A stretch of 64,000 nucleotides of DNA from an uncultured virus (IMG/VR IMGVR_UViG_3300044695_008744) (IMGVR_UViG_3300044695_008744), one strand, 5' to 3'; positions 18,443-60,800 are shown, counted from the first letter of the stretch. Translations and numbers: made by a program. Notes: a model not told the origin generated them from the letters alone.

Positions 18443-19462
18443 ATGAGTAAGATTGAATCCGACAAAGAAAAAAAACAATCTATAAAACCTATTGCTAAAA
18501 AAACTGATTTTAATGGTGATAAAATAACACATTCTGAAACCGAAAAAACCAGAGGTGTTGTTGTATTTTTATCATCTGACTTAAGTGGTGCACCAGAAGT
18601 AATAGATGTTCACGACGGTACAGTAGATTTGGATGCTACCAACTCTCTAAAGAATGACACCGAATCAGAAAACTTGGTATTACAAAGCTTATATTTTGAT
18701 TCAATTTCGCCTGAAATCAATTGTAAACAACAAAAAATGTATCTAAAAGGCTCAGGTTTAAATTCAAAATTACCTGAGATTAAATGCAAAACAACACTCA
18801 GGGAGCGAATAGAAGATAAAAAAAACTCAATGCTGTCTAGAACTATTTTTTTGATAAATTTGTTCTTTTTGAAGAAAAAGTACACAAATTTCTTTACAAA
18901 TATTTATTCAGAAATAATACCAGAAGATGTTTTCCAAGCAAAGGTTTTGAATTTGACTAAGTTCAATCGCAATAGATTGATGAAAAAGTATGGTATCAGT
19001 GAAGATGAGCTCAATTTTATTGCTTTTGCAAGATTCTCGTACCCATTTATAACTAGAGGTGAAAAAGAATGGAGCAAAATCGAAAAAAATGCTGATGCGT
19101 TCATTGCAAGAAAATGGATAACAGAAGACATTAAAGGTAATTTCAAAATAAATGTTAGCAAAGTTTATACATTCAGGGAAAAAATTATTTTTCCTAATCA
19201 ATTTAAAGACATTGTTATCAAAAAAGCTTTTAATTGGAAAATCTTAAATAAGATTCTGAGAAAAGTTGAAAGAAGTGCAAAAACTCAAGTGCACGTTTAT
19301 ACTATTTCTCAAATTAGCAAACTTCCTTTTACCCAATTTGGAAATAGTAATATTGCCACTCATCCTCCTATTAGTAAAAATGATGAACAAATAAGTAGTT
19401 TGATCAAGAAAAAACCAATTGAAGCAATGAGTAGCATTAATAAAAAAAATTTTTTAAAATAA
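18443..19462 (+). CDS. hypothetical basic protein
   Basis: 339 aa Lys-rich ORF directly upstream of tRNA array 1; TATAAT just before the ATG. Confidence 0.6.
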   Translation: MSKIESDKEKKQSIKPIAKKTDFNGDKITHSETEKTRGVVVFLSSDLSGAPEVIDVHDGTVDLDATNSLKNDTESENLVLQSLYFDSISPEINCKQQKMYLKGSGLNSKLPEIKCKTTLRERIEDKKNSMLSRTIFLINLFFLKKKYTNFFTNIYSEIIPEDVFQAKVLNLTKFNRNRLMKKYGISEDELNFIAFARFSYPFITRGEKEWSKIEKNADAFIARKWITEDIKGNFKINVSKVYTFREKIIFPNQFKDIVIKKAFNWKILNKILRKVERSAKTQVHVYTISQISKLPFTQFGNSNIATHPPISKNDEQISSLIKKKPIEAMSSINKKNFLK

Positions 19463-19484
19463 AATAAAATAAGAAACTTTTTTA

Positions 19485-19513
19485 AAGGAAAAACCGTCTA
19501 AGATTGTGTAATA
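19485..19513 (+). promoter_or_regulatory. putative promoter of tRNA array 1 (AAGG-N21-AATA)
   Basis: Matches the motif recurring upstream of many genes in the window. Confidence 0.5.
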
Positions 19514-19529
19514 TAAAAAAGGAACTAAA

Positions 19530-19583
19530 ATGACAAATTCGCTACTCCATTCATATCCAGCCTACGCACCCTCATCGGGGTAG
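19530..19583 (+). CDS. attenuator leader peptide of tRNA array 1 (MTNSLLHSYPAYAPSSG)
   Basis: SD AAGGA 19519-19523, ATG 19530, TAG 19581-19583; codons CTA, CAT, TAT, TAC, CCA and GCA match the five downstream anticodons. Confidence 0.85.
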   Translation: MTNSLLHSYPAYAPSSG

Positions 19584-19612
19584 TGGCTCGTTGCGTATTT
19601 GACAAGCTACAG

Positions 19613-19646
19613 AACCCCGAAGGACTCAAATCTTTCGGGGTTTTTT
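19613..19646 (+). terminator. intrinsic terminator (attenuator) upstream of tRNA array 1
   Basis: AACCCCGAAGGA-ctcaaa-TCTTTCGGGGTT 12-bp stem followed by a T tract. Confidence 0.9.
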
Positions 19647-19652
19647 ATTTTT

Positions 19653-19664
19653 GAACATTGACAA
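19653..19664 (+). promoter_or_regulatory. boxA-like antitermination element
   Basis: GAACATTGACAA resembles rrn boxA; 11 nt before the first tRNA, same spacing as array 2. Confidence 0.55.
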
Positions 19665-19675
19665 TTTAATAAAAT

Positions 19676-19754
19676 CTATGCGTTGAGGAGTTTGGCTTAC
19701 CTCGCGTCCCTTGGGAGGACGAGTACGCAGGTTCAAATCCTGCCGCATAGACCA
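19676..19754 (+). tRNA. tRNA-Pro(TGG)
   Basis: Acceptor CTATGCG/CGCATAG, anticodon arm CGTCC-CT TGG GA-GGACG, GGTTCAAATCC, CCA end. Confidence 0.92.
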
Positions 19755-19758
19755 ATTT

Positions 19759-19843
19759 GGGGGCATCGCATAGTGGCAATTGCTGGAGACTGTAAATCTC
19801 CCCTCGCGAGAGTTCGTAGGTTCGAGTCCTTCTGCCCCCACCA
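19759..19843 (+). tRNA. tRNA-Tyr(GTA)
   Basis: Acceptor GGGGGCA/TGCCCCC, GGAGA-CT GTA AA-TCTCC, long variable arm, CCA end. Confidence 0.92.
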
Positions 19844-19850
19844 AAATTTT

Positions 19851-19930
19851 GCCGAAGTGGTGGAATGCATACACGCTAGTCTTAGAAACTAGTGCCTTAG
19901 GGCATGTGGGTTCAAATCCCACCTTCGGTA
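19851..19930 (+). tRNA. tRNA-Leu(TAG)
   Basis: Acceptor GCCGAAG/CTTCGGT, CTAGT-CT TAG AA-ACTAG, variable arm; followed by TCA rather than CCA. Confidence 0.9.
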
Positions 19931-19936
19931 TCAAAT

Positions 19937-20010
19937 AAGCAAGTAGCTCAATTGGTAGAGCCTTTTGGTTGTGACCCAGAAGCGTGTGAGTTCAAATCTC
20001 ACCTTGCTGA
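19937..20010 (+). tRNA. tRNA-His(GTG), atypical ends
   Basis: TAGCTCAATTGGTAGAGC D arm, TTTGG-TT GTG AC-CCAGA, GTGAG-TTCAAAT-CTCAC; 1:72 mismatch, no G-1/C73, no encoded CCA. Confidence 0.75.
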
Positions 20011-20019
20011 CTCAGTTTA

Positions 20020-20096
20020 GGGGCTGAAGCTTATTAGGGAAAGCGTCTGATTTGCAATCAGAAGTCTTGCGGGTTCGAAACCCGTCAGCTCCACCA
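20020..20096 (+). tRNA. tRNA-Ala(TGC)
   Basis: Acceptor GGGGCTG/CAGCTCC with G3:U70, TCTGA-TT TGC AA-TCAGA, CCA end. Confidence 0.92.
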
Positions 20097-20097
20097 A

Positions 20098-20415
20098 TTA
20101 CAAATCATAAAATCTCTTTGGAGTGTAAATATATTTCATAGGCTGAACACCTACCTCGTCAGGTTGAGTTGTAGGTTCTTCAGCTAATTCGCCTAATACC
20201 GCTGGTGGCTCAGGAATAGGGGGATTAATTTGTGCTGGTTCGTTAACAACATTATTTTGTTTACGATTATATTCTCTTGCCAATTCTTTACAAGTTTCGC
20301 AAGCTCTTTCATCAAATTGCCAGATTGTGTTTCCGCCAGGAAGTTGTTCAATGAAGCATCTACACCCTTCATGCACAGGAGGTAAGATTTGTTGTTGTGA
20401 ATATTTATACCACAC
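20098..20415 (-). CDS. small Cys/His protein with Mu gpF/SPP1 gp7-like PPxHxxCRC motif (GTG start MWYKYSQ; shorter than the ORF-track call)
   Basis: PPVHEGCRC and ACETC motifs; GTG at 20415 follows TAGG-N22-AATC; the longer start would run into the array 2 promoter/leader. Confidence 0.6.
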   Translation of the reverse strand: MWYKYSQQQILPPVHEGCRCFIEQLPGGNTIWQFDERACETCKELAREYNRKQNNVVNEPAQINPPIPEPPAVLGELAEEPTTQPDEVGVQPMKYIYTPKRFYDL

Positions 20416-20465
20416 AATCTGATTTTCAAGAAAAAAAACAAAAAAACCTAATTTTATAGAACAAA

Positions 20466-20493
20466 AAGGAGATTGTGTCGTATAATCATAATA
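20466..20493 (+). promoter_or_regulatory. putative promoter of tRNA array 2 (AAGG-N20-AATA, with TATAAT at 20481-20486)
   Basis: Recurrent motif plus a perfect sigma70-type -10 hexamer. Confidence 0.55.
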
Positions 20494-20504
20494 AGGAATT
20501 AACA

Positions 20505-20573
20505 ATGAAATTAAATTTGCAGGGCAGTATGGTGGGATGTTTTATTTGGTCAACCCAAGGGGGTAGTGGCTAG
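20505..20573 (+). CDS. attenuator leader peptide of tRNA array 2 (MKLNLQGSMVGCFIWSTQGGSG)
   Basis: SD AAGGA 20493-20497, ATG 20505, TAG 20571-20573; the run AGT ATG GTG GGA TGT TTT ATT TGG TCA plus CAG/CAA matches all ten canonical downstream tRNAs. Confidence 0.88.
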   Translation: MKLNLQGSMVGCFIWSTQGGSG

Positions 20574-20601
20574 AAACCTGCTGTTAGCAAAAATTTCAAC
20601 C

Positions 20602-20638
20602 AAAATCCCTGAAGGCAAAATCTTCAGGGATTTTTTTT
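20602..20638 (+). terminator. intrinsic terminator (attenuator) upstream of tRNA array 2
   Basis: AAAATCCCTGAAGG-caaaa-TCTTCAGGGATTTT stem followed by a T8 tract. Confidence 0.9.
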
Positions 20639-20640
20639 AT

Positions 20641-20652
20641 GTTCTTTGACAA
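20641..20652 (+). promoter_or_regulatory. boxA-like antitermination element
   Basis: GTTCTTTGACAA closely matches rrn boxA (GYTCTTTRAMAA); 11 nt before the first tRNA. Confidence 0.65.
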
Positions 20653-20663
20653 TTAAATAGTGA

Positions 20664-20739
20664 GCGATATTGGTGTTAATGGTTAGCATCACTGCCTTCC
20701 AAGCAGAGGGTGCCAGTTCGAATCTGGCATATCGCTCCA
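20664..20739 (+). tRNA. tRNA-Gly(TCC)
   Basis: Acceptor GCGATAT/ATATCGC, loop CT TCC AA, U73, CCA end. Confidence 0.92.
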
Positions 20740-20747
20740 GATTATGT

Positions 20748-20823
20748 GGCTTTCAGGTGTAACTGGTGTGCACGAAGTGCTGAAAACGCTTAGGACATAG
20801 TTCAATTCTATGGGGAGCCACCA
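20748..20823 (+). tRNA. tRNA-Phe(GAA)
   Basis: Acceptor GGCTTTC/GGGAGCC, AAGTG-CT GAA AA-CGCTT, CCA end. Confidence 0.88.
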
Positions 20824-20832
20824 CAATTTTGA

Positions 20833-20919
20833 GGAAGGTAATGCTGAATGGTTTTGGCGAATGTTTGCTAAACATTTCGGGCTGAAAGGTCTCTGGTTCA
20901 ATTCCAGTGCCTTCCTCCA
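20833..20919 (+). tRNA. tRNA-Ser(GCT)
   Basis: Acceptor GGAAGGT/GCCTTCC, AATGT-TT GCT AA-ACATT, long variable arm, CCA end. Confidence 0.88.
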
Positions 20920-20924
20920 TACAA

Positions 20925-21012
20925 GGGGAATTCGCATAGTGGTCTAGTGCGGCTGTCTTGAAAACAGTAGGGCTGAAAGGTTCCGTGGGTTCGAATCCTA
21001 CATTCCCCTCCA
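20925..21012 (+). tRNA. tRNA-Ser(TGA)
   Basis: Acceptor GGGGAAT/ATTCCCC, GCTGT-CT TGA AA-ACAGT, long variable arm, CCA end. Confidence 0.92.
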
Positions 21013-21020
21013 AGTTTTGT

Positions 21021-21094
21021 GTTGTCTCTAGCTCAGTTGGTAGAGCATTCCATCGCGAGGAAAGGCGAAGGTTCAATTCCTTCGGGCAACACCA
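21021..21094 (+). tRNA. aberrant tRNA-like gene, identity undetermined (nominal anticodon CGC, Thr-like body)
   Basis: Intact D arm, T arm and ACCA end, but only a 4-bp anticodon stem TTCC-ATCGCGA-GGAA and one extra base before U8; no G3:U70. Confidence 0.6.
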
Positions 21095-21100
21095 TTTTAT

Positions 21101-21187
21101 TGAGGAATAGTGTAATTGGTAACACGCTAGGTTTTGGCCCTAGAGACAGAAATGCTCGTCCACGTTCGAATCGTGGTTCCTCAGCCA
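21101..21187 (+). tRNA. tRNA-Gln(TTG) with unusually long variable region
   Basis: Acceptor TGAGGAA/TTCCTCA, G73, CTAGG-TT TTG GC-CCTAG, 16-nt variable region, CCA end. Confidence 0.85.
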
Positions 21188-21190
21188 AGC

Positions 21191-21265
21191 ATCCGAGTAG
21201 CTCAATGGTAGAGCCCAATCTTGATAAGGTTGAGGTTTTTGGTTCAAGCCCAAACTCGGATACCA
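21191..21265 (+). tRNA. tRNA-Ile(GAT)
   Basis: Acceptor ATCCGAG/CTCGGAT, CAATC-TT GAT AA-GGTTG, CCA end. Confidence 0.9.
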
Positions 21266-21266
21266 C

Positions 21267-21341
21267 ATCCGCGTAGCTCAACGGTAGAGCAAAATCCTTA
21301 CAAGATTGAGGTTTTTGGTTCGAATCCAAACGTGGATACCA
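21267..21341 (+). tRNA. tRNA-Val(TAC)
   Basis: Acceptor ATCCGCG/CGTGGAT, loop CT TAC AA, CCA end. Confidence 0.9.
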
Positions 21342-21346
21342 ATTTC

Positions 21347-21420
21347 GGCAAATTAGCTCAATGGCAGAGCGGAGGTATCATAAGCCTTTGATAAAAGTTC
21401 GATTCTTTTATTTGCCCCCA
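21347..21420 (+). tRNA. tRNA-Met(CAT), elongator-type (Ile2 not excluded)
   Basis: Acceptor GGCAAAT/ATTTGCC fully paired (not initiator-like), GAGGT-AT CAT AA-GCCTT, CCA end. Confidence 0.8.
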
Positions 21421-21423
21421 TAA

Positions 21424-21497
21424 GCACGATTAGCTAAATGGTAAAGCAAGGGTCTGCAAAACCTTTATCGCTGGTTCGATTCCAGCATTGTGCTCCA
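21424..21497 (+). tRNA. tRNA-Cys(GCA)
   Basis: Acceptor GCACGAT/ATTGTGC, U73, AGGGT-CT GCA AA-ACCTT, CCA end. Confidence 0.92.
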
Positions 21498-21500
21498 TAC

Positions 21501-21575
21501 ACCGCTGAGAGTAGGTTGTTTCTAAAGAGTCTCCAAAACTTTTTTACCTGGGTTCAAATCCCAGCGGCGGTGCCA
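21501..21575 (+). tRNA. tRNA-Trp(CCA)
   Basis: Acceptor ACCGCTG/CGGCGGT, G73, AGAGT-CT CCA AA-ACTTT, atypical D arm, CCA end. Confidence 0.85.
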
Positions 21576-21578
21576 ATC

Positions 21579-21887
21579 TCACGACACAATCTTAATAATA
21601 TGCGGTTCTGTTTCTGAGATATTGAATATACCATCACCCAATTGATATTTTTTACCTAAATCATCAATGAAATCCTGAAATTGCGTTTCAGCATTTTCAA
21701 TCACTTCTTGGTTTTGTGCAAATTCTGCCTGTAGGGATTGCATTTGCTTTTCAGTTTTTCTCATCATATCAAATAAATCTGATCTTTTTCCTTTCAGATT
21801 AAGAATACCAGCTCTCATTTGGGTATAGTTGTTGAATTCTTCTTTGGAAAGTGCTTTTTCAGATTGTGTGTCGCTTTTGAACTTCAT
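21579..21887 (-). CDS. coiled-coil hypothetical protein
   Basis: 102 aa heptad-rich ORF downstream of the amidase, convergent on array 2. Confidence 0.6.
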   Translation of the reverse strand: MKFKSDTQSEKALSKEEFNNYTQMRAGILNLKGKRSDLFDMMRKTEKQMQSLQAEFAQNQEVIENAETQFQDFIDDLGKKYQLGDGIFNISETEPHIIKIVS

Positions 21888-21905
21888 AATATTATTTTAC
21901 AAGAT

Positions 21906-22754
21906 TTATCTTGTTCTTATTAAAACAAAAGTGGCTCCAGTTTTATCACAAACATCTCTCAAAAATATCCAAGCGCTGCCATTTTCATCTATCTCGGCTA
22001 CAGGCACAGAATAACCTTTCAAGCCATTCATCCACACAATGTTTTTGCCCATTTTTGTCAAAGCATAATTTTTGGGTTGTAATTTATTAATAAATTCTCT
22101 AGCAGGAACAATAGTTCTACTATTTACCACTCTTGTTTTACCATAAATGAAAACATTATCTCCCAATGTTATTTCAAAAACAGGATTAGTCCAAGGCGCG
22201 GCACCTTCCCCACTAAAAATTAAATATTGTTTATTTACTGCATCTACAAATTTTGTTTTGTCTACAAGTTTACCAGGGCATGTTTTATTTGTCAAAGGGT
22301 CATCTCTATGGAATTTAAGTGTAGGTGGTTGCACCTTTAGATAATCGCAAAGAAACCCACACAATTCTTGAGTGATTTCAAAAATTTCTTTTGCTCTATG
22401 TGAAGTGAAATCTGTAACAGTGTCGTAGTCACCTAGCATTTCTATACCCCAAGCATTAGCATTATAGCTTTTGGCATGTACGCCAGGTTTGTTTAATGCT
22501 TGAAAAAGAATAATTCCTTTATCATCTACAAAAAAATGTGGTGCACCGTTCCAATTCATAACATGCTCATAATAATATTTCAAATTGATGAGATGTTGAT
22601 CTGTGAAGCCATTTGGTCTTTGTGAAAGATTAGGTGAGGCTGTGTGATGTACTACAACAAATTGCGGTTTAAATGAAGTGAAATTCAAAGTTGCTAAATA
22701 AGTTTTTAGTTCTGCGATCGTTACTCTTTTGCCAACATAAGGAATAGTGCCCAT
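21906..22754 (-). CDS. N-acetylmuramoyl-L-alanine amidase (Amidase_2 endolysin) with C-terminal copper-amine-oxidase-N/stalk-like domain
   Basis: VVHHTA, HFFV, GVHAKSYN, GIEMLGDY, FHRD, KTCPG; C-terminal RTIVPAREF...GSAWIFLRDV. Confidence 0.85.
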   Translation of the reverse strand: MGTIPYVGKRVTIAELKTYLATLNFTSFKPQFVVVHHTASPNLSQRPNGFTDQHLINLKYYYEHVMNWNGAPHFFVDDKGIILFQALNKPGVHAKSYNANAWGIEMLGDYDTVTDFTSHRAKEIFEITQELCGFLCDYLKVQPPTLKFHRDDPLTNKTCPGKLVDKTKFVDAVNKQYLIFSGEGAAPWTNPVFEITLGDNVFIYGKTRVVNSRTIVPAREFINKLQPKNYALTKMGKNIVWMNGLKGYSVPVAEIDENGSAWIFLRDVCDKTGATFVLIRTR

Positions 22755-48823: not shown

Positions 48824-51800
48824 ATGTCGTGGAATTTGCAAATTGTCCCAAAAGGACTCCTATTAAGTAGATATATTAAAAACGTTATTTTGTTAAATCC
48901 AAATAATGTTAAAAATGTCGAGAACAATCCATTGATTCTTGATCAATATCAAACTTATAATGCGGCAAATAACACAGCAAATATTGTTTTTCAGCTCGCA
49001 GTTTATAACACAAATCCACAAAATCAAGCTAGTGAGCCGACAATCACTTCTATAAATTTCATTCAAATCTCTAACGATCCTTTGTTTAATGAAGTTTATT
49101 ACTTAATTCCAGCTAAGTTTTCACAAGCCTATAATCTGCAAACTGATTATGAAGTAGACTTAAGCGCTTACTCATTTACACAAACTGCGTTGCCTGCTTC
49201 CCAATCAGTAACTTTCACTGAAAGCAGTGGCACAGGAAATATTTCGATTAAAAACTGGGCTCTTTCAGGCTCTTCTGGCGCTAAAAAAGTATACTTCAGC
49301 ATAAATGCCAATTTAAGTGATGGCACAAATGCCACATATCCAGAGGGGCTTGATGTGTATGATGAAATCATTGTATGTTCAAGTTTTATTTCGTCCCCTG
49401 GAGTTCCACAAACTTTAGCTAAATCTAAACAAAATTATTCATCTTCTCCATTATATTTTGAAGCAGACGTGGCAAGCAATTCTGGAATTAATCAAATTGA
49501 TGATTATGGAGTTGCATCTTATTTTTGGGATGGATTAATTCTCAAAACCACTGATAATGTTTATAGAAATAATTATTCACAAGAAAATATTCAATTGTTT
49601 AATTCTATTTCGCCAAAAGCATCAAATTTAAATCAAGAAAAACTTCCAGTGGTTTTTTCTACTACTTTAACAACAACTAATTGGTCATCTTCTGCATATA
49701 AAAAATATATAACAGCAAATGCTTTTACTTTGACAGCTTCTGATAATGTTTATTTCTTTGAATGTTATGTTAACAATTACTCTAACACATTAAATTATGT
49801 TAGTGGGAAGAGTTTTTTTTATGAATTTAATGTTGTAAACAGCACAGGCTCCACTAAGTATTTGAGACAGCAATTGGTTTTTGATGAACAGTTTAACACA
49901 TTGGTGATCTATATTTCAATTGATGATACAACATGGTCTAGTGATTCAAGCTATGTCCCTTCTGCATTATATAAAACGATCACAATCACAAACCCAGATG
50001 TAATTGGTCAAATTACACAATCTGGAAGCTTCATTACATTTATTGAACTTTTAGATTCTGCAAATAAAATCTTACAATCTAAAATCATATTCAAGCCTCA
50101 AAATTCCACTGATAGTTTTGTGGTATCAGAAACACTTTTCACTTCTAATACTTTTAATTTAGCAAATGCCTACGGTGAATTCAGATTCTTTTTACAGAAC
50201 TCAACATACACTACCGTTCTTGAATCAGTGCAATATGGATTATGCCAGGGGGCAATTTCGGCTGCAGTAATGCCTAATGATAAAATCATTACAGATTATA
50301 GTAGTAAAGTAGAAAATTCGATTTACAATTTCAATGACTCTGCAAAACTTAATACTTGGTTTACAATTTCTAACTCTCCAGCCTCAGGTGTTGTTAATAC
50401 GACAACATCTACTGTGCAGCTTTTTAATAATCAAGAAAATGATGGAATAAATAATTTATCTGCTATTGAAATACAATCTTCAGTGCCAACTTTTTCAGTG
50501 GATTCCACGCTGATTTCTCGCTTTAGAGTTTCAAGTGCCAATTCTGCTGTATTAAAAACTGCTTATTCGTTTGATAGCAATTTAAATTATGAAAATTTTG
50601 TTTTTAATGATTTACTCCAAACCTCTAGTGGAGTATATTTACCGCAAAACAACGCATTATATGAATACACCACTTCTCTAAGCTGGACTGGATCAAGCAG
50701 ATTTGATTTAAATGTTTTTAATGTTGGTCTTGGGCAAACTTGTTCAATTACCACAACAAAAACTAACAACTTATTTTTCTATTCTCAATCAAACAATAGT
50801 GGAACATTAACACCACCAACAATCATTAAAACTGTATCAAATATTTCTAGTACAAATATTTTTAATGCTTGGATTAGTACAAATGGCATTTCCACAGCTT
50901 TCATTGTTCAAAGTTCTTTATCTGTCAAAAATAAAGGGTTAGTTCCTATTACAATCACTTCATCGGCAGGATTAAGTACAATTTTACCTGGTCAACCTTT
51001 TGTAAATTCAATTTCTACTAATTCTTTGCAACCAACACAAATTATTGTATCTGCTCCTTCAAGTTCTATATCTAATAGTCTAAATTTCTTATACGATTTT
51101 GGCAAGATTGGGACAATCACTGATTTAAGTTTAAAAATTCAGATTGCAACACCACCTGAGTGTCCATCTACTTTACCATCCTTCCAATACTCAGTGGAGG
51201 TTTCGGACGATTTTATCAATTGGACTTTTGTTTCATCACTCACTGCCACTGATACTTTTTATCCATCAACAGGCGATTTGCTGTTGAGTTTTAGTGATAT
51301 TGATCAAGAAAATGTTAGATATGCAAGAGTGAGATTGTATTATAATATTGCTGTAACTTTTGATCCAAGAACAATCTATAGATATTCAAGTTTGCAAGGG
51401 ACAATCTCTTCCTCTTCTTCAATTACAAATACTGGAAAACTCATCTTTGGATTTACTGATACTAGTGCTAAAAATTCATCTTTAAATCAACTTTACAATC
51501 AGCCAACATATTTGAGAAAATATGTGACAAATTCAAGTGTTGTAAATGGAATAATTTTTGATTTCTCAGAATATTCAACAACAATCGGTGGACCAGTTTA
51601 TTTAAGTTTACTCACTGAAACTGAAGAAAAAAGATTTTACACAATCGCTAACAATTTCTCATTAAGCACAGACTATACATTCTCATTTAGTGTGCAGAGG
51701 ACAAATTCTGATAATGCTTTTCATTTGAAACCATTTTTTACTCTAAGTGGGGGAAATCTAAATGAACTATCATTAAGTCTTGATGATATTCTCACAGAAC

Positions 51801-54800
51801 CTTTAGATACACAATCTCTTACTTTTGGATTTTATCCATTTATATCTTTGATTGGTAATGGCAACGCCACTGTATCTTACTCCGTGTTTAGAGGCACTTA
51901 TAATCATGGGCTAAGTTACCAAAAAGATAAAACATATTTTTCATTGTTATCAAGTGAAAACCCTGACTATACTTCTCAGTATGGAAAAAATGTTATTGCT
52001 CAAAATACATACGGAATTACCACTTCAGCATTTCCGCAGATAGACACATACTTTTCTAATAACTCTATAAAGCAATTTAAATACGAAAATGTTACTTTTA
52101 CAGTTAAAGCAGCATCAACTAGTCCAGTAGGTCTGTATGGACAAACTTATATAGACGGCATATATTTAGATTTTTGTGATTATGTTTTGGTTGCTGGTCA
52201 AGTTGATAAAACAACAAATGGTGTATATCAAGTTCAAAGCCAAAGATGGGTTAAACAATCTGCATTGCCTTCAGGTAGTAATTTATCTGAGCCTACAGTG
52301 TTAGTAAGCCAGGGAAATATTTTTGAAAATACACTTTGGATGCTAGATAAAACCTCATCTGAATGGATTAGCAATGTGATTAGTTGCCCAGTCGTAATTG
52401 AGGACAATAATCTTCTTTTCACAGGAGTATCATCTTCTTATAAATATCCACAATATATTAAACTTGCATGTTCAGTAAATGGAATTGCCAGCCAAAGCAC
52501 CAGCAACCAAGTACAGATAAAATTGGCGAATTCTCCCACAGAAATTATTCAGGAAACTGATCAGATTACACAATGGGTTGGATTATTGCAAAATGGACAA
52601 CTTTACAATATTCAAGAAAAAAGCAATTCTAATAACACTGTATTTATGAATTTTGGAATTTCAAGTTCTCAAATTTCAGGAATTACAACAAATAGTTTTC
52701 CAGCAGTTTACAATATTTTAACAAGTTATGCTGGTAATTTTGCACCAGCAATATCAAATAATTCAGATTTTGTTCTTCCAGCTTACGGTTCTGAATATAG
52801 AATTTTCAAAAATGCTAGTTTAATTTATCAGCTATTTTCAACCTATGATTCGGTGAGTTTGAGTTCTTTGTCCACTGCAGTTGTAAACTCTTCAGTGTAT
52901 GCACTTAATTTTGCAAATCTTAAATCACCACAATCTGGTTATAGTACAGATATATTCATTGATAATGTTGCACCAACTATAGGAATTGTTTCTGTTTTAA
53001 ATGATCAAACAAAATCTGTAACTCTTGGTGTATCCACTGCATTAGACGCTGGGTCTGGTTTATATATAGCAAGAATTGTTCAAAGAAATCCATCCAATGA
53101 ATTAATATATGGATCTTGGTTTGGTTTTAATACAAACAGTTTTTATGGCTTATCAACCTTTACTGCATATCCTTCATATGTATCGAATGTAAATGGAATT
53201 TCCACTGGAGAACCTCTTTCAGGTTATTATAGATATAGCTTGCAAGTGGCAGACTCTGTAGGAAATGTAGCACAAACAAATCAAGTAGAAAGTTTTTATT
53301 ATGAATCTGCTCTTGTTGACACACAAGGTCCAGGATGTTCTGTTCAGTTTGTCAACTCACAAACATTTGAACCGATTTCAATTTCTTCATCTACAATCTT
53401 AACTGCTCAGATGTTTGCAACAGACACATTATCTCAGGTCAAAGCTTTTAGATATAGAATTCTACCTGATGGAGAATTCGGCAATTGGATTGACTATAAT
53501 GAATATGCTAACATTTATCTTCCTGAAAATATTTTAGACGGCACACTATCTGTCCAATTTCAGTTTAAAGATTTTGGCAATAATGTGTTGTATTCAAATT
53601 CTACAATCATAAATGATCAAGTTTATGTTTATTCATGGAACATTGTATCAAAACTTATAAACAATACTCTTTTCACTGTCACTGAAGTTACGAAATACAA
53701 TAATAACTCAGTTCTTTTGATTGGTGCATCTAAGCAAAATGCTGCTACACTTTTTGTGTGGGACAACAACAAACTGATTGAATTACAATATTCTGGCTTT
53801 ACAGGATGTAAAGCTGTTACCGCATTGATAAAAGTGGGAACACAAGTTTTAATTGGAACTGACAATGGTTCTATATTCACATACAGAAATGGTGTGGTGG
53901 CAGGTCCATTCGCTACTTTGAGTTGGGGCGATACACCTTTGCCAATTTCTAAATTTGAAATTCACTCTTACCCAGAAGACAACACAAGTTTTGTTTACGC
54001 AACAACATTAAATATTCCAAGAATTTTTAGAACTCCAACTGATAGCTTGAGATCTACTTCTTGGGAAGTAATTCAACCACCATTTATTTCTCTGGAGAAA
54101 ATTAATGTATTGAATTCGGGGCTTTGGTCAGGTACACAAATTTCATACACAATCTCATCAAGTTATATACCAGCCACATTATCACCAAACTATAGTTATG
54201 GTATTTCAAGTGTTATTGTTGCCAGCTCTGGTTCTAATTTACCAAGTGCGCCTACAATTACTGTTGGTGGACCCATTACAAACCTTGGATTACAGCCAGT
54301 AATGCAAGGAAGTATTGGTCAAATTATTTTAATTGCAAGTGGTCAAGGGTATTCGTCTGGAGCCACAGTAACAATTGCATCACCAGCAACAGGAGGATCA
54401 TCAGTACAAGCCACTGGTGTTGCAGTAACAAATTCACTTGGTCAGATTGTGTCGATAGTTTTGACTGCTGCAGGCTATGGATATACTGCACAGTACCCAG
54501 CTGTAACAATCACAGGAAATTCTGGAAATGGAAGCCAAGCTACCGCTACAGCAATAACACAATTTGATTCGATTTATTCTGTTACTGTCACTTCAACAGG
54601 TATTGCTACAACATCTAACATTACACTGACTACATCAGGTGGCGCGGTTTTAATTCCTACATTCTTGTATAGAGTGCCATCTATTACATTGACAAGCCCA
54701 GGCTTTGGTTATACATCAAGCCCAATTGTTTCAATTAATGGTTTAACAACCTTAGCAAGTTCAGTGGCACAATATGGTTCAATACAATCTATCACAGTGA

Positions 54801-57800
54801 GTGAGCCAGATGTAGAATTTCCAATCACTCTTTCTCCTAGTATATCTTTTATTGGTGGAGCATCCACTTCGTTTACCGCTAGTTTATCAACCACATCAAT
54901 TTCTTTTTCTACAGGTTCGACCGATAGTTTCTTAGGATTTGTATTAAGCTCAGCAAGTATCACAACAAGTTCTGTTGGTTTTGGGACTATTCCTCAGATT
55001 GTGTTTACAGGAACTGGAACTACAAATATTTTCTTACCACAGCTAGAATATGTTTTATCTGATGACATTCTTTTATATACAAAATCTGGTTCAATTTATG
55101 ATATTAAATCTTTTGATAATAAACTTTTTGTTTCAAGTTCATCAGGCGATATTGTAGAAATTGGTTATTCAAGCGGAATATTCAGCGCAGAGAGACATAA
55201 ACTTAATGTCAATAGCAATACTTTTTCTAATATTATTCCTGTTAATTTGGCAAAATATAATGATGGTATAAGCACTAATCTTTATTTTAGCACAAAAGAA
55301 GAGCCTTATATTGGAAAGTTAACAAAAAATCTAAACAGTTTTATTTTTGATTCTTATCGTGATAACATTTTACTTTTCAAACCTTTTAATTTTGATATTC
55401 TTTCAAACTGGCAACTTAAGAAAATTATCAATGATAATGGTTTTGCAAACGTTTCTTATGGAGATTCAAACAATAGTTCTGTTGACATCACAACATTTAA
55501 TGCTCAAGCTTTTTATGAAACTACAAAAGAGAACACATGGTTCAACAGATGTATTACTAATAATGACTATTTAGTGTTGTTTGATTTCCAGGCAGTTATT
55601 GGAACACAATCTTTTGAAATTTCAACTTTTAATTCTACACTTAAAGTAGCATTTACAGTTTTAAATAACACTCTACAGATTGCTTTTGGAAACAATAACT
55701 ATTCTACTATTGAAATTGATCTTTCATCTAATTACAATATTTATTTTGCAAAGAGTTCACAAAATTTATACATTTACAATGATTCTAACTTAATTTACAG
55801 TGAAATAGGATTTTTTGTAACCGTGAGTGCACAACCAGTTATTAAGTTTGGTTACATATTCGAACCACAAACTGTTTCAGCCAATGGTGACACTCTGTAC
55901 ATATTTGGTTTACCTTCTAATGCTGAATCTTCACAATTTATTTGGAGACAAATTAAATTCTCATTTAATAGCAGCACTAATGTATTACCAACTGATTATT
56001 ATAGTTTAAGTTTACCTTATGTAATGGCTAATTCTAGCTCTGTAAGAGCACTTAGAAATATAAACAATAGTTTGTTTGCCGCAACAAAATCAATTTTAGA
56101 TAGAAGAAGTACAACAAATCTTCCAGATGTTGGCACTAAAGTTTTTAGATTAGATAATGATTACTGGAGTGATGTTACAGGTAACTTTGATACATATACA
56201 GCAAGTGTAAGCACCTCTTATGTAATAACTTCACCAAACGACATTAACGCTTTAGACAATTCGTATTTTGTTACAGGTTTGGTTAAATCAATTCCAACAA
56301 GACAAGCAGCAAACACAATTATTCTTGGTCTTACATCGAACACAATTTATGAAGAACAAAATGGTCTTATATTAACAATTATTTACCCATATAATATTGA
56401 ACCTTCAGGCAAATTCTTGTTTATTTCAAGCACAAATAGTAATGTAACAGTTCCTTCTTCTGTCTTCTTTAGTTCAAGCGATCAAGTTCAAACTGTTGCT
56501 GTGGGAATTGGATCTACATCAGTAAACTCAAATGTCACCTTAACTGTAACTGATGGTGATATTTCCCAATCTGTTACAGCTAATATTTTGCCAATTGGAA
56601 TTTCTACTCTTGGATTCAATACAAATCTTTTTGTTGGATATTCTCAAGATTCTGTAATTGCAAATATAAGATTGACATCAGTTCCTAAAACAAACAGAAC
56701 AATTTTATTATCTAGCAATAATAGTTCAGTGCTGGCAGCACCAACAAATGGAATTGCTACAATTACAGCGGGTAATATTGGAATCTTTACTTCATTCTCA
56801 GTTGGCACAGCTGTAGCATCTAACACTAGCGTGACTATTGCTGCGTCTTACAGATCAACATTTGGGATAGCTACAGTTGTTGCATCTCCATTTGTTTTGT
56901 CATTAGGCGTAAATACAAATACTTTTGTTGGCAATGAATCCACAAGAAAAGTATTTGTAACATCCAGCGTTCAAAAATCCCCAATTGGCGTATTAACAGT
57001 GAATTACACCTCAAGTAGTAGTGCTATATTAAGTATACAGCCATCCGCTGTAATATCTCCAGCTTCTTTCAGCACAACTACTCAATTAACAATTGGAAAT
57101 GCTGTCACTACCAACACTCAAGTCAATTTGACAGGAAGATTTACTGGATCAATTTCCACTGGAATTTCTACTGCCACTCCGTTTGTTGTGACTACAGCGA
57201 CCACTGACTTATCAAGTCCAGTTTTAGGTTTACAAACTTCTAACGTTACATTTACAATTAATACTACACCTCTTACTAATGTGTCGGTTAGAAACATTGT
57301 GAGTTCACCTTCTTTTGTTAATATGGTGTTCCCTACATTCTCAACAGTCCTTGCTGGTACTTTATCTACCACTTTTGCAATATCTACTACAATTCAAACA
57401 TCAGCAGGATTAGCTATTACAATCAAAGGTGCGCCATTTGGATTCAACACTTCTCCAACTCAAGGTTTAATACTTTCTTCTGACGTTTGGAAGATTACAG
57501 GGTTTTCTATTTCCCCAACTTCAATTGTTGGAAATGGGCTTTTCGCAAATGGCATAGGTCAATCATATATTCTAAATGTTTCACTTAATATTGGTTTGCA
57601 AACAACAATTCTTATTACATCAAGTACAGGCTTTGTTAGCACAAGAAACATTAATTTCTTGACCACAAGCACAGGCTCAGCATCATCTATTGGATATGCC
57701 ACTGGATTTTCTACTTCTGCAATAACAAACGTAACTATAACAGCCACTGGTCCTAATTCTATATCTAGTTCAGTAAGTGGCTTGTTCTTAAATCCACTGT

Positions 57801-60800
57801 TAATTTCAAGTTTTTCGACAGCTTATGTATGGAATGACATTGCAACATTGTCTCCTAATTATACTATAGGAGGTCTAGGGGCAACAGTGATTGGCACTGT
57901 TGTGCTTAATTCTTATGTAGCCACAGGTGTTCAAACTATTCTTGTAAGAGCAAGCAATGTAACCACTCCTATAAGAATTTATGGTCAATCTTCTTCATCG
58001 GAAATTATAGGCTTAGCAACAGTATATACAGGTAGCAACACTACAAGTATTAATTTTGGGGCAAATTTTGTTTCTGTAAATACATCAGAGCCAATTACAG
58101 CTAGAATAATTTCTTCTGGTAGTGGTGTAGCAACAACGCCTATCAATGTTTACACCTATCCATCTTACAGTGCAATTTTCTATCCTGTTTACAGTGGTCG
58201 AGAAAACTATTTTGCACTTTCTGTTGGAACAAGTTTGCCAGTGAGCATTGGTTTTGCTGTAACTTTTAATAGTGGAGCTGGAATTGCTATAACAGCCACT
58301 CTTTTTGCGCAACAAAATCAAGTGTTGGCAAGCGTAAATCTTGGAACATTTAACACAGATAAGGTAATTTTAGCAGAAGTTGTGGCTTTAGGCTCAATGC
58401 AAACCTATTATGTGACAGGATATGCAAAAACAGGGGACGTTTTTGGTATGGGCTACAATTACTACGGGGAACTTTCATATAATTATCCTGTTTTAGGTCC
58501 AACAAATGGTTCGGCAGATAAGATTGCAATGAATCTTGGAAACATTGTTAAAACTGTATCAGGCTATCATCATAATTTAGCTCTTGATTCATATGGATAT
58601 GTTTATGGTATTGGTTATAATGCATATAATCAAATAGATTCTACTGGTATATCCACAAATGCTTTCAAACTCATCAACACAAATAACACATATGTCAGAG
58701 ACATTTTTGCTCAAGGTAACTCTTCTTACTTTATAACTGCCGATAACAAACTATATGGTTTTGGAGAAAATAATTCATATAGTTTGGGTACTTCAGGGTT
58801 TGCAAGCACAAGTGCTCCTTATCTTATAGCTTCTAATGTTGTTTTAGCTAGTATTATTTATGATAGAGGTGCTTACGTAACCTATGACAACAGGCAAGGA
58901 ATACAATCAGTGTATGAGTTTGGTAATGGAGCAGCTGGAATAACAAGTAAGCCCATCACTACATTGACAGATCAAGGCGTAACAATTCCCATTAGTAATT
59001 TGAGAATTTCAAATATTGATAATGGTCAGTATCATACAGTGGCGTGTGGCATATGGTCAAATCAAACTTTAGGTTTTTCTTCTAGTGGTGTTTTTGCTTG
59101 GGGAAGCAATGCATATTATCAAATAGGAACTTCTATTTCTATTGGCTATATAACAGTGCCTAATATTCTTCATAGATTTACCCAAGGAGGGGTTGATCAT
59201 GTTACACAATCTAATAACATTTACGCTGTTGATAGATTATCTGGTGTTGTTGAAAGTTATATACCTCAGGATCAATACTTTGTAGGCTCTGTAACAATGA
59301 ATACTCAAGGAATTGGATATACAGCAGGAGCAACTGTAACGTTTTCTGCTCCTCCTGTAACCCCATCTTCCGTTACAGCAACAGGTTACGCAGTCACTAA
59401 CGCGATTGGAATTGTTTCATCAGTCCTAATTACTAATCAAGGAGCAGGTTATAATCTTGGAGCAGCTGTTACGTTTTCTCCTCCACCAGCAGGAATAAAT
59501 ACTCGAAATGCTACTGGTACTGTTATTGTAAGCGCCAATAAAGTGGATTCAATTGTTATCACTGATTCTGGTAATGGTTATACTGAAGCCCCAACAGTAT
59601 TTATTTCACCAATAGCTGGTGGCTCAGGAGCGGCAGGAATTTCTTCAATGGCGTATAGCCAAATCACACAAATTATCGTCAGCAATTCTGGTTTTGGTTA
59701 TACAAACGCTCCAACAATAACAATTTCGTCTGTTGTGGGTTCAGGTGCAACAGCCACAGCAAATATCGAAACTATTGCTGAGCCAATTAACATTATTTAT
59801 CAAGTTGGAGTCAGCGTGACTTCGAACGCTACTGGATTTGGTTTAGCTCAAACATCTATCGCTGCTCCTTTATATGTAACAATACCTCAAGTATTACAGC
59901 GTATTTCTAAAAACTCTCAACATTTTGTTTGGACTATGCAATCTGGTTTAGTTTATGTCTCAGGCGGATCAGTGGGTCCGATACCTCTTACACAGTTAAC
60001 AACCACATTTACACAATCTGTTAGGCTGTTTGCACAAAATGAACCTCTCTCTACAAATGAACTTTATAGTTATGTGTGGTCAGCTGGCTCAAACATAACA
60101 ATTTCACTATTTGCTGGGGAAATTGTTCAAACTCTGAGTCAAGTTCCTGTAAAAATCAGTAGCCAAAACCAATGGGGTCCAACTAGTAACAATGAGTGGG
60201 GCTGGGCTTTAACACTCAAAACTGATGGTTCAATCGATTTCTTTAGACAACACCCAACGATTGTTCCTAAGTATGTTCAGAATTATCTACAAAATATTTA
60301 TGGAAATACTTTTGTTGATGTTTGTGCTACAAGCTATTTCAAGCCTACTAGACTTTATGGTGATTCAAACTATGCACCTGTAGCTCTTTCTTATTCAGGA
60401 GGCAACGTATTTGTTATAAGAACTCAAGGCGTAAGCAGTTACAATGTTTACCTTTCTAAGGCATCATCTGTTGCCCCTGTCCTAATTGATTCTGGCTATT
60501 TAAGTTATGAATATGCTAGTTTAAGAACTTATGCAAACTTCGCTGTGGCATACGCTGATGGTACAATTGAGCTTTATGTCCAAACATCTTTTGGGTTTGG
60601 TCATAGCCTTCTCACTTCTTGGAATCCAGATGGATCTCAGATTTCTATTTTAAAGAGTTTAATTAATGCAACCACTGATACGATTGTAAATGTTACATCT
60701 TCAAGTTCAAATTTTGTGTATCTTTATGTTGGAACGCAAAATAGATTACTAAATTGTTATTATGCATGGAATACCAGCTTCTCGGCTTTAGGCTCTTCTG

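What the first reader, a model, noticed from the sequence alone, without database searches (positions are those of the whole stretch)
19485..21575. Codon-matched leader-peptide attenuators gating two phage tRNA arrays: a candidate multi-tRNA depletion sensor
Seen: both arrays share one unannotated layout of promoter-like motif, SD AAGGA, short ORF ending in TAG, strong intrinsic terminator, boxA-like 12-mer, 11 nt, then the first tRNA. Each leader ORF carries codons for its own array and lacks most of the other's. Leader 1 has L/H/Y/P/A and no C, F, I, W, Q or V. Leader 2 has G/F/S/Q/I/V/M/C/W and no H, Y, P or A. Established: trp/his/pheST-type attenuators use ribosome stalling on leader codons to choose antiterminator over terminator, normally for one or a few amino acids and for biosynthetic or synthetase genes. 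Host defences such as PrrC, PARIS (AriB) and retron-associated PtuAB cleave tRNAs, and phage tRNAs can rescue infection. Inference: the leader acts as an OR-gate with one codon per tRNA, so loss or uncharging of any listed host tRNA stalls the ribosome and transcribes the replacement set. I know of no description of attenuators controlling tRNA arrays this way, but I could not search the literature.
Basis: partly seen in the sequence, partly recalled or inferred. Interest (0 to 1): 0.97.

Follow-up and report, generated by a model that had tools for sequence, protein, structure and literature searches.

The report
Leader-peptide switches gating phage tRNA genes
In this giant phage, two blocks of tRNA genes each sit behind a tiny test gene spelled in the codons those tRNAs read, followed by a switchable transcription stop, so the phage probably makes these tRNAs when ribosomes run short of them, a control I could not find described for tRNA genes.

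Summary
Each tRNA array in this 347-kb phage genome is preceded by the same layout. A -10-like box and an AGGA ribosome site come first. A short ORF follows (17 and 22 codons), then a 14-bp intrinsic terminator and a boxA-like 12-mer. Exactly 11 nt later the first tRNA begins.

Leader 1 has 9 of 16 codons for its own array (Pro/Tyr/Leu/His/Ala). Leader 2 has 16 of 21 and covers 9 of its array's 10 amino acids.

An automatic search found 19 terminator/short-ORF units upstream of tRNAs across ten phage genomes of this family. It included cultured Bacillus phage G, where gp86 precedes Cys-Asp-Phe-Tyr-Glu-Thr-Ser-Trp. Shuffled leader/array pairings never reached the observed concordance (0 of 50,000). 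This held at codon/anticodon level and without the discovery genome.

Most units in relatives are not homologous in sequence. One reads MLMQQQQSQSSQSSSS before Gln-Gln-Gln-Ser.

In leader 1, folding shows an antiterminator built from the leader's 3' end. A ribosome reaching the stop codon would mask it. Leader 2's antiterminator is weak.

Nothing is shown experimentally. The anti-defence trigger is inference. I found no published account. This scan has noted the same design in other phages.

The parts
19501..19514 (+). Promoter-like element of unit 1: the genome's recurrent 9-mer AGATTGTGT running into a -10-like TAATAT (19509-19514)
   Evidence: Sequence. The 9-mer or its complement occurs 336 times in the genome. 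The -10-like position is conserved in the four-leader alignment. No full sigma-70 promoter was called there. The promoter role is inferred.
19519..19523 (+). Shine-Dalgarno-like AAGGA, 6 nt before the ATG of leader 1
   Evidence: AGGA lies 7-9 nt before the ATG in all four leaders of G000 and G001.
19530..19583 (+). Leader ORF 1, MTNSLLHSYPAYAPSSG, stop TAG
   Evidence: 9 of 16 codons are for array 1 and 5 of 5 amino acids are covered. Length, start and stop are conserved in G001 despite 5 non-synonymous and 4 synonymous codon changes.
19569..19588 (+). Antiterminator 5' strand of unit 1. It comprises the last leader codons, the stop codon and the 12-mer GGGGTAGTGGCT, and it resembles the terminator's 3' arm
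   Evidence: The duplex with the terminator 5' arm is -16.4 kcal/mol against -8.8 +/- 2.2 for shuffles (1 of 500 as good). Its formation depends on the modelled ribosome position.
19611..19652 (+). Intrinsic terminator 1 (14-pair stem 19611-19644, then a T run)
   Evidence: One compensatory pair change against G001: A-U becomes C-G.
19653..19664 (+). boxA-like 12-mer GAACATTGACAA, 11 nt before tRNA-Pro
   Evidence: 7 of 11 positions match the gamma-proteobacterial BoxA consensus GYTCTTTAANA read in PMC5725501. The 12-mer is identical in G001's unit 1 (GAACATTGACAA); the core TTGACAATT is identical in all four units. Function is inferred.
19676..20096 (+). tRNA array 1: Pro(TGG), Tyr(GTA), Leu(TAG), His(GTG), Ala(TGC)
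   Evidence: ARAGORN and Rfam.
20471..20486 (+). Promoter-like element of unit 2: GATTGTGT then TATAAT (20481-20486)
   Evidence: The promoter role is inferred.
20493..20497 (+). Shine-Dalgarno-like AAGGA, 7 nt before the ATG of leader 2
20505..20573 (+). Leader ORF 2, MKLNLQGSMVGCFIWSTQGGSG, stop TAG
   Evidence: 16 of 21 codons are for array 2, 9 of 10 amino acids are covered, and 0 of 21 codons are read by array 1.
20553..20571 (+). Candidate antiterminator strand of unit 2 (ACCCAAGGGGGTA plus the 12-mer GGGGTAGTGGCT)
   Evidence: Weak: the duplex is -10.1 kcal/mol and 139 of 500 shuffles are as good. The orthologous strand in G001 is better, -13.7 with 10 of 500 as good.
20602..20642 (+). 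Intrinsic terminator 2 (14-pair stem 20602-20634, then a T run)
   Evidence: Against G001 there is a compensatory U-A to C-G change and loss of one pair on both arms.
20641..20652 (+). boxA-like 12-mer GTTCTTTGACAA, 11 nt before tRNA-Gly
   Evidence: 10 of 11 positions match GYTCTTTAANA (PMC5725501). The 12-mer is identical in G001.
20664..21575 (+). tRNA array 2: Gly(TCC), Phe(GAA), Ser(GCT), Ser(TGA), 'Ala'(CGC), Gln(TTG), Ile(GAT), Val(TAC), Met(CAT), Cys(GCA), Trp(CCA)
   Evidence: Ser(GCT) is found only at a lowered ARAGORN threshold and as a sub-threshold Rfam tRNA-clan hit.

Best explanation
Each unit is a ribosome-mediated (leader-peptide) transcription attenuator that gates a tRNA array.

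Transcription starts at the -10-like box. A ribosome loads at AGGA and translates the short ORF while RNA polymerase approaches the terminator.

If every codon is decoded quickly, the ribosome reaches the stop codon. There it covers the leader's 3' end, which is the only strand able to pair with the terminator's 5' arm. The terminator forms and the array stays silent.

If charged tRNA for any codon in the first two thirds of the leader is scarce, the ribosome stalls upstream. The 3' end stays free and pairs with the terminator's 5' arm. Polymerase then reads on over a boxA-like element into the array.

The sensed codons are those read by the tRNAs behind the switch. The product therefore relieves the stall, which gives supply-on-demand feedback for up to ten tRNA species per switch.

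Shown here: the anatomy, its conservation, the codon/anticodon concordance across many units, and predicted alternative pairings. Inferred: translation of the leader, termination, the direction of the switch, and the boxA role.
For: 1. The layout is identical in both units. The folded leaders are more stable than shuffles (z -3.1 and -4.1).

2. In close relative G001 both leaders are kept, with start, frame and stop preserved. The peptide changes while the composition holds: leader 1 is 9 of 16 in both genomes. G001 gains tRNA-Leu(GAG) and has 3 Leu codons against 2. G001 lacks tRNA-Ile, and the Ile codon in its leader is replaced by ATG.

3. The four leaders share a 3' switch module (60 invariant of 123 columns), but their codon-bearing 5' parts differ.

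4. Within the genome, 5 and 3 of 1663 short ORFs match as well as the two leaders; the counts were not filtered to leave out the leaders. The own-versus-other-array codon table gives Fisher p = 1.4e-4.

5. An automatic search gave 19 units in ten genomes, and 8 of the 19 have binomial P < 0.01. Examples are MLMQQQQSQSSQSSSS... before Gln-Gln-Gln-Ser...KNDNNWRDADDN... before Asn-Asp, a 7-Leu leader before Leu tRNAs, and phage G gp86 (28 of 43 residues, 8 of 8 amino acids).

6. Shuffled pairings reach the observed score in 0 of 100,000 and 0 of 50,000 trials. Without G000 and G001 the counts are 0 of 50,000 in each of the three settings;'s earlier set, which dropped only G000 and three redundant units (13 units, one G001 unit kept), 4 of 100,000. 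At codon level the count is 0 of 50,000. Only the true arrangement, 1 of 1152, reaches it among within-genome permutations.

7. Frame control: the matched fraction is 0.52 in frame against 0.32 and 0.32 in the shifted frames. The true frame is best in 16 of 19 units.

8. Matched residues lie early in the leaders: 0.57 in the first two thirds against 0.42 in the last third (p = 7e-4).

9. Antiterminator pairing beats shuffles for G000 leader 1 (1 of 500 as good), G001 leader 1 (1 of 500), G001 leader 2 (10 of 500), G035d (0 of 500) and the G015 Leu leader (13 of 500).

10. Ribosome-mask folding gives the expected behaviour. In leader 1 the terminator arm is sequestered at 0.69 with the A site on codons 2-9, 0.60 at codon 10 and 0.50 at codon 11, and 0.30-0.33 from codon 12 to the stop. 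The G015 Leu and G038 Asn/Asp leaders behave like four-region trp-type switches.

11. No TATAAT lies between terminator and tRNA in the window's units. The genome's other tRNAs sit directly after TATAAT with no leader.
Against: No RNA or ribosome data exist for any unit.

Leader 2 of the window has only a weak candidate antiterminator (139 of 500 shuffles as good). Its masked folds show no clear switch (arm pairing 0.29-0.62 throughout).

For 7 of the 13 units tested for antiterminator pairing, the duplex was no better than shuffles.

For leader 1 the equilibrium fold of the nascent RNA forms the antiterminator even without a ribosome. The untranslated state is therefore ambiguous.

Each tRNA is represented by only one to five codons, whereas classical leaders use runs. 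Sensitivity to mild shortage is doubtful.

The concordance is imperfect. 'Ala(CGC)' has no codon in leader 2. G001 keeps tRNA-Val but has no Val codon in its leader. Leader 1 carries 5 codons read by array 2.

6 of the 19 automatic units show no enrichment. At least two of the 19 are ordinary gene-end terminators followed by a TATAAT promoter: G001 414, which shows no match (0 of 15), and G013, which is nominally enriched (5 of 11, P = 0.016).
Confidence: 0.8

Rival explanations
1. This rival keeps the same switch but names a specific trigger. The leaders would be multi-input alarms for sudden loss of host tRNAs, caused by anticodon nucleases or other tRNA-cleaving defences or by phage-induced host tRNA decay. 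One stalled codion of any listed kind would turn on the replacement set.
For: Each array tRNA has only one or a few codons in the window's leaders. That suits detection of near-total loss better than mild starvation (inference). Ten of eleven array-2 tRNAs are represented. That phage tRNAs can rescue infection from tRNA-targeting defences is established knowledge, recalled and not read here.
Against: Nothing in the sequence points to a defence context. Relatives use classical runs (QQQQ, Leu x7, Asn/Asp) that look like ordinary supply sensors. The host and its defences are unknown.
Confidence: 0.25
2. The short ORFs are independent small genes or upstream gene ends with their own terminators. 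The tRNAs would be transcribed from separate promoters downstream, and the codon match would have no regulatory meaning.
For: The motif after the terminator contains TTGACA, a perfect -35 hexamer. Some automatic units are of this ordinary kind, with TATAAT between terminator and tRNA (G001 414, G013, G011).
Against: In the window no -10 box lies at a usable distance. TTGACA-to-TAAAAT spacing is 6 nt, and a start there would fall inside the tRNA. The peptide sequence is not conserved while its composition is. Concordance with the downstream tRNAs beats all shuffles and is frame-specific.
Confidence: 0.05
3. The leader RNA senses tRNAs directly, T-box-like, by codon-anticodon pairing without translation. 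Alternatively, the leader is translated for another purpose, for example to keep a ribosome coupled to polymerase.
For: Both ideas would also place array codons in the leader.
Against: No T-box or other Rfam leader family reaches threshold. The codons are in one frame with a conserved AGGA, ATG and stop, and the match is lost in the other frames. Up to ten different specifier codons in a row have no precedent in T-boxes (knowledge).
Confidence: 0.04
4. The match is a chance or compositional coincidence.
For: Short AT-rich ORFs are common: the genome has 1663 of 14-26 codons.
Against. No shuffle reaches the observed concordance, including within-genome and codon-level tests and tests that exclude the discovery genome.
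Confidence: 0.01

Closest known systems
Multivalent leader-peptide attenuators of enterobacterial amino-acid operons (ilvGMEDA, ilvBN, thr, leu, his, trp, pheA leaders)
   Same: Promoter, ribosome site, short ORF rich in regulatory codons and an intrinsic terminator. An alternative pairing is decided by where the ribosome stops. Some of these leaders sense several amino acids at once (recalled knowledge; pheL mechanism read in PMC3082878).
   Different: The regulated genes here are tRNAs, not enzymes. Up to ten species are sensed by one to five codons each in the window. The element sits in phage genomes. No Rfam leader family matches (His_leader 26.9 bits against a 49-bit cut-off; Thr_leader 24.4 against 55).
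pheST (pheM leader) and other aminoacyl-tRNA-synthetase attenuators
   Different: Those regulate the charging enzyme for one amino acid. Here the tRNA genes themselves are regulated, so the product directly relieves the sensed stall.
T-box riboswitches
   Same: A terminator/antiterminator choice upstream of translation-related genes, keyed to a codon that matches a specific tRNA.
   Different: T-boxes bind uncharged tRNA directly without translation and have a conserved fold. No T-box hit was found here, and the codons form a translatable frame.
rrn/lambda BoxA-Nus antitermination
   Same: GTTCTTTGACA matches 10 of 11 positions of the BoxA consensus GYTCTTTAANA (PMC5725501, passages read). It sits at the head of a long untranslated stable-RNA transcript, as in rRNA operons.
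   Different: The host and its own BoxA are unknown. Unit 1's copy matches only 7 of 11 positions. Binding of Nus factors is untested.
Bacillus phage G gp86 (annotated only as 'gp86')
   Same: A 44-codon ORF, an 11-pair terminator and then tRNA-Cys. 28 of 43 residues are for the eight tRNAs of the cluster that follows. Phage G is the nearest cultured relative by major head protein (48.7% identity).
   Different: No sequence homology to the window's leaders. Small protein genes lie between its tRNAs.

Membership tests
Leader-peptide (ribosome-mediated) transcription attenuators | Short ORF with start codon and ribosome site between promoter and terminator | tested here: met
   AGGA, ATG, frame and stop are conserved in G001.
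Leader-peptide (ribosome-mediated) transcription attenuators | Leader enriched in codons tied to the regulated product | tested here: met
   9 of 16 and 16 of 21 codons match. Concordance beats all shuffles at amino-acid and codon level.
Leader-peptide (ribosome-mediated) transcription attenuators | Intrinsic terminator between leader and regulated genes | tested here: met
   14-pair stems with T runs at 19611-19644 and 20602-20634.
Leader-peptide (ribosome-mediated) transcription attenuators | Mutually exclusive antiterminator whose formation depends on ribosome position | tested here: inconclusive
   Met in silico for leader 1 (1 of 500 shuffles as good; arm pairing 0.69 falling to 0.30). 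Not shown for leader 2 (139 of 500).
Leader-peptide (ribosome-mediated) transcription attenuators | Regulated genes are amino-acid biosynthesis or synthetase genes | tested here: not met
   The downstream genes are 5 and 11 tRNAs. This is the point of departure from the known kind.
Leader-peptide (ribosome-mediated) transcription attenuators | Leader translated; read-through rises when cognate charged tRNA falls | not testable with these tools
Rfam leader families (His_leader, Thr_leader, Trp_leader and others) | Score at or above the family's gathering cut-off | tested here: not met
   His_leader 26.9 bits against 49 at 20486-20640. Nothing was found for unit 1.
T-box riboswitch | Match to the T-box covariance model | tested here: not met
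   No T-box hit at E <= 1 in 18500-22500.
BoxA (NusB/NusE site) | Match to BoxA consensus at the head of a stable-RNA transcript | tested here: inconclusive
   10 of 11 and 7 of 11 positions match GYTCTTTAANA. The consensus is for gamma-proteobacteria and the host is unknown.

The most novel reading that the evidence does not exclude
These are viral multi-input tRNA-loss alarms. A modular switch carries a swappable 'address' written in codons. It detects the disappearance of any one of up to ten host tRNAs, for example after attack by anticodon nucleases or during host tRNA decay, and turns on exactly the replacement set. The module spreads by duplication and re-addressing, as the two paralogous units of this genome suggest. 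It has also arisen repeatedly in giant phages, including a cultured one.
Probability: 0.25. Interest if true: 0.93.

Novelty: new variant of a known kind. Interest (0 to 1): 0.85.

Why it matters
tRNA genes are usually treated as constitutively or growth-rate controlled. Phage tRNAs are usually discussed as codon-usage helpers or counter-defence spares.

A translated sensor that reads the very codons its tRNAs decode would be a direct feedback loop on decoding capacity. It would show that giant phages monitor the host's translation state codon by codon. It would also explain how tRNA genes are grouped into arrays: by shared switch.

The same design occurs in cultured Bacillus phage G, so the idea can be tested at the bench now. 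The leaders could also serve as compact natural reporters of the supply of specific tRNAs.

Tried and rejected
- A loose pattern, GGTARTGGCT-N55-85-TTGACAAT, scanned over viral and metagenome contigs gave 120 and 119 stretches. By blastn only the G001 loci were true relatives. This spent the single metagenome scan, so metagenomic relatives remain unexamined.
- The neighbouring 339-aa ORF, alone and as a two-sequence alignment, found only G001.
- A covariance model of the shared 3' module (R1) found it only in G000 (2 copies) and G001 (2 copies) among 43 records. Three weak hits had E of 0.003-0.01. The units in other relatives are therefore not recognisably homologous.
- RNA evidence: no RNA holder was listed.
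- I recalled that E. coli pheV or pheU might have a Phe-rich leader. The pheV upstream sequence shows only a promoter, so I dropped the idea.
- Rfam leader and T-box families gave nothing at threshold.
- The split tRNA-like sequence at G000 13.6-13.97 kb has no intron family at the gathering score.
- I did not run pair counting on the four-leader alignment. MAFFT puts the two terminator types one column out of register. Compensatory changes were read by eye instead.
- No homologue of the phage G leader was found in 50,697 phage records.
- Literature searches found no paper describing leader-peptide attenuation of tRNA genes. PMC2965389 and PMC3082878 were read as passages only. Subscription journals are not covered.

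Full report
**What is there.** The window is part of a 347,392-bp virus record with 33.6% G+C, 23 ARAGORN tRNAs and a tmRNA. Its major head protein is 48.7% identical to that of Bacillus phage G, the nearest cultured phage. Almost none of 20 large window ORFs match PHROGs.

- a -10-like box (TAATAT 19509-19514; TATAAT 20481-20486) beside the genome's recurrent 9-mer AGATTGTGT;
- AAGGA 6-7 nt before an ATG;
- a short ORF (19530-19583, MTNSLLHSYPAYAPSSG; 20505-20573, MKLNLQGSMVGCFIWSTQGGSG), both ending in TAG;
- a 14-pair terminator with a T run (19611-19644; 20602-20634);
- a 12-mer (GAACATTGACAA; GTTCTTTGACAA);
- exactly 11 nt, and then the first tRNA.

Array 1 is Pro-Tyr-Leu(TAG)-His-Ala(TGC). 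Array 2 is Gly-Phe-Ser(GCT)-Ser(TGA)-'Ala'(CGC)-Gln-Ile-Val-Met-Cys-Trp. Ser(GCT) needs a lowered ARAGORN threshold.

The genome's other tRNAs (Met, Asp-Asn-Thr, Lys, Arg, Met-Glu) lie directly after TATAAT boxes, with no ORF or terminator. The genome therefore has two classes of tRNA gene.

**Is the codon match real within this genome?** Leader 1 has 9 of 16 codons for array 1 and covers all five of its amino acids. Leader 2 has 16 of 21 for array 2 and covers 9 of 10; the missing one is Ala(CGC).

Using wobble rules, leader 2 has 0 of 21 codons read by array 1. Leader 1 has 5 of 16 read by array 2 (Ser x4, Gly). The 2x2 table gives Fisher p = 1.4e-4.

Of 1663 ATG ORFs of 14-26 codons anywhere in the genome, 5 do as well as leader 1 and 3 as well as leader 2.

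TAG is an ordinary though minor stop codon: 21 of 219 long ORFs end in it.

**The close relative.** G001 is a 166-kb fragment whose proteins are 65-92% identical to G000's. It holds both units.

Leader 1' is MINTLSHLYPALAPSSG. It differs by 5 non-synonymous and 4 synonymous codon changes. Length, start and stop are unchanged, and 9 of 16 codons again match.

G001's array has an extra tRNA-Leu(GAG), and its leader has three Leu codons (CTC, CTA, CTC) against two.

Leader 2' is MRNSQFSQGCFMWSTLQGNG. G001's array 2 has no tRNA-Ile, and the Ile codon is replaced by ATG.

Against the idea, G001 keeps tRNA-Val without a Val codon in its leader. The tRNA at the Gln position is of unclear identity. 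Its Gly(TCC) is called by Rfam but not as Gly by ARAGORN; Ser(GCT) and Trp I could read only by eye.

The four leaders align well from the last codons through the terminator to the 12-mer (60 invariant of 123 columns). The codon-bearing 5' parts do not align. The two units look like duplicates of one switch with different 'addresses'.

The terminators show compensatory changes: A-U to C-G in unit 1, and U-A to C-G plus loss of one pair on both arms in unit 2.

**Distant relatives and the shuffled-pairing test.** The head-protein alignment retrieved a large family of giant phages. Of 325 candidate stretches, 146 encoded a relative, and 80 were kept at 55-95% identity.

I fetched tRNA regions of nine further records (G004, G011, G013, G015, G020, G029, G035, G036, G038) and of phage G.

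An automatic caller then used these rules:
- a terminator stem of at least 10 pairs within 260 nt upstream of a tRNA;
- the longest ATG ORF of at least 10 codons, in an open frame of at most 75 codons, ending within 100 nt of the terminator;
- the array defined as the following same-strand tRNAs.

It gave 19 units in ten genomes. None outside G000 and G001 is homologous to the window's module: model R1 was searched over 43 records.

Examples:
- G035: MLMQQQQSQSSQSSSSFGWPCALAP before Gln-Gln-Gln-Ser (13 of 24, P = 1e-6).
- G038: MSFKNDNNWRDADDNTSSRLVVRS before Asn-Asp(-Trp).
- G020: ...SLNNHNGNARLTYQVNTAVHNYPNM... before Asn-Asn-His-Tyr-Tyr.
- G015: MTRRYLSLLGLLSLSLEKAAIS before Leu tRNAs, and a Gly/Ser/Thr/Asp-rich leader before Gly-Ser-Thr-Asp.
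- Phage G: gp86, MMKCSWFEFDTDFTDVFYCEYTFYSLYTFLDIRKQLQKSRGCLT, followed by the only terminator-like site in that 1.2-kb stretch and the cluster Cys-Asp-Phe-Tyr-Glu-Thr-Ser-Trp (28 of 43, 8 of 8 covered).

Eight of the 19 units have binomial P < 0.01, and 13 have P < 0.05. Six show nothing. Two of the 19 (G001 414, 0 of 15; G013, nominally enriched at 5 of 11) are ordinary gene ends with a TATAAT between terminator and tRNA.

Shuffling the arrays among leaders gave these results:
- 0 of 100,000 shuffles reached the observed score in an earlier 18-unit set.
- 0 of 50,000 did so for 19-21 units under three parameter settings.
- 0 of 50,000 did so without G000 and G001. In one search's earlier 13-unit set, which dropped G000 and three redundant units, the count was 4 of 100,000.
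- 0 of 50,000 did so at codon/anticodon level, strict or relaxed wobble.
- Among all 1152 within-genome permutations, only the true arrangement reaches the observed score.

The matched fraction is 0.52 in frame against 0.32 and 0.32 in the two shifted frames, and the true frame is best in 16 of 19 units. Nucleotide composition or leader-tRNA sequence similarity therefore does not explain the match.

Matched residues sit in the first two thirds of the leaders (0.57 against 0.42, p = 7e-4). This is where stalls would matter.

**How the switch would work.** In unit 1 the stretch 19569-19582 (CCCTCATCGGGGTA: the last codons plus the stop) resembles the terminator's 3' arm. It pairs with the terminator's 5' arm at -16.4 kcal/mol, against -8.8 +/- 2.2 for shuffles (1 of 500 as good).

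The same holds in G001 unit 1 (1 of 500), G001 unit 2 (10 of 500), G035 (0 of 500) and the G015 Leu unit (13 of 500). It does not hold for the window's unit 2 (139 of 500) or for six others.

I folded the nascent RNA with a 30-nt ribosome mask. In unit 1 the terminator arm is sequestered at 0.69 while the A site is on codons 2-9, 0.60 at codon 10 and 0.50 at codon 11 (Leu, Leu, His, Ser, Tyr, Pro, Ala lie at codons 5-11). It falls to 0.30-0.33 from codon 12 to the stop.

The G015 Leu and G038 Asn/Asp units behave like four-region trp-type attenuators. The arm is free without a ribosome, sequestered during stalls on the matched codons, and free again later.

For unit 1 the no-ribosome state is ambiguous. 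The equilibrium nascent fold forms the antiterminator. The full-length fold shows a leader hairpin plus the terminator.

Unit 2 shows no clean switch in this crude model. These are predictions, not measurements.

**The 12-mer.** GTTCTTTGACA matches 10 of 11 positions of the BoxA consensus GYTCTTTAANA, and GAACATTGACA matches 7 of 11 (PMC5725501, passages read).

A Nus-type antitermination site at the head of a long untranslated transcript would make sense. The host is unknown, however, and this remains a lead.

It is not a usable promoter. No -10 lies at the right distance, and a start there would fall inside the tRNA.

**Comparison with what is known.** In mechanism this is classical leader-peptide attenuation. 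It differs in three ways: the regulated genes are tRNAs, up to ten species are sensed per switch, and it is viral.

It belongs to no Rfam leader or T-box family.

Seven full-text searches found no account of leader-peptide control of tRNA genes. My recollection of a pheV leader was wrong.

This scan's own earlier notes describe the same design in at least six other genomes, but none on this genome or on look-alike DNA. Those are unchecked AI notes and are not counted as evidence here.

**What remains open.**
- Whether the leaders are translated.
- Whether termination occurs at these sites.
- The direction and dynamic range of the switch.
- Whether the natural trigger is ordinary supply-and-demand feedback or sudden host tRNA loss through defence nucleases.
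- Why 'Ala(CGC)' is unrepresented in leader 2.
- How unit 2's switch is built.

No RNA data could be obtained.

Noticed in passing
whole genome G000; for example window 19501-19509 and 20471-20479: The 9-mer AGATTGTGT/ACACAATCT occurs 336 times (192 + 144). TTTTCCAGGTTTAACA occurs 62 times, all on the + strand. It usually continues ...CACAATCTGATTATAATAGATATG, which puts TATAAT 4 nt before an ATG. This looks like a phage-specific promoter for leaderless genes.
   Followed up: partly
G000 contig 13,66x-13,965 (L254), outside the window: A tRNA-like 5' half and 3' half lie about 230 nt apart, just upstream of tRNA-Met. This may be an interrupted tRNA. Rfam found no intron family at the gathering score.
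   Followed up: partly
window 21021-21094: The tRNA called Ala(CGC) lacks the G3:U70 pair expected of alanine tRNAs (recalled rule). It is conserved with the same anticodon in G001 and is the only array-2 tRNA with no codon in leader 2.
   Followed up: no
window 21101-21187: tRNA-Gln(TTG) is 87 nt long with a long extra arm. The tRNA at the same position in G001 gets inconsistent ARAGORN calls.
   Followed up: no
L001/L003 (G001), minus strand: G001's tRNA-Gly(TCC) carries a 17-nt hairpin-forming insert just after the anticodon. Its array 2 is split by about 770 nt holding an ORF on the other strand beside a second Ser(GCT)-like copy. An unexplained ~85-nt stretch lies between the boxA-like motif and tRNA-Pro.
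   Followed up: no
L350 2192-2264 and 2285-2359 (G015); L376 8933-9007 (phage G): Relative G015 has two tRNAs with anticodon CTA (amber-reading). Phage G has an annotated tRNA 'other' (tta) next to its tmRNA. Some members of the family may read stop codons.
   Followed up: no
window 48824-61240: A single ORF of 4138 aa. Several other ORFs of 1100-1700 aa are nearby, and none has a PHROG match.
   Followed up: no
window 21906-22754, minus strand: A 282-aa ORF just downstream of array 2 matches endolysin/amidase PHROGs (E = 2e-12).
   Followed up: no
G000 record: The record is classed 'provirus' with 99% completeness by its source, although it is a single 347-kb phage-like contig. I saw no host flank in the window.
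   Followed up: no
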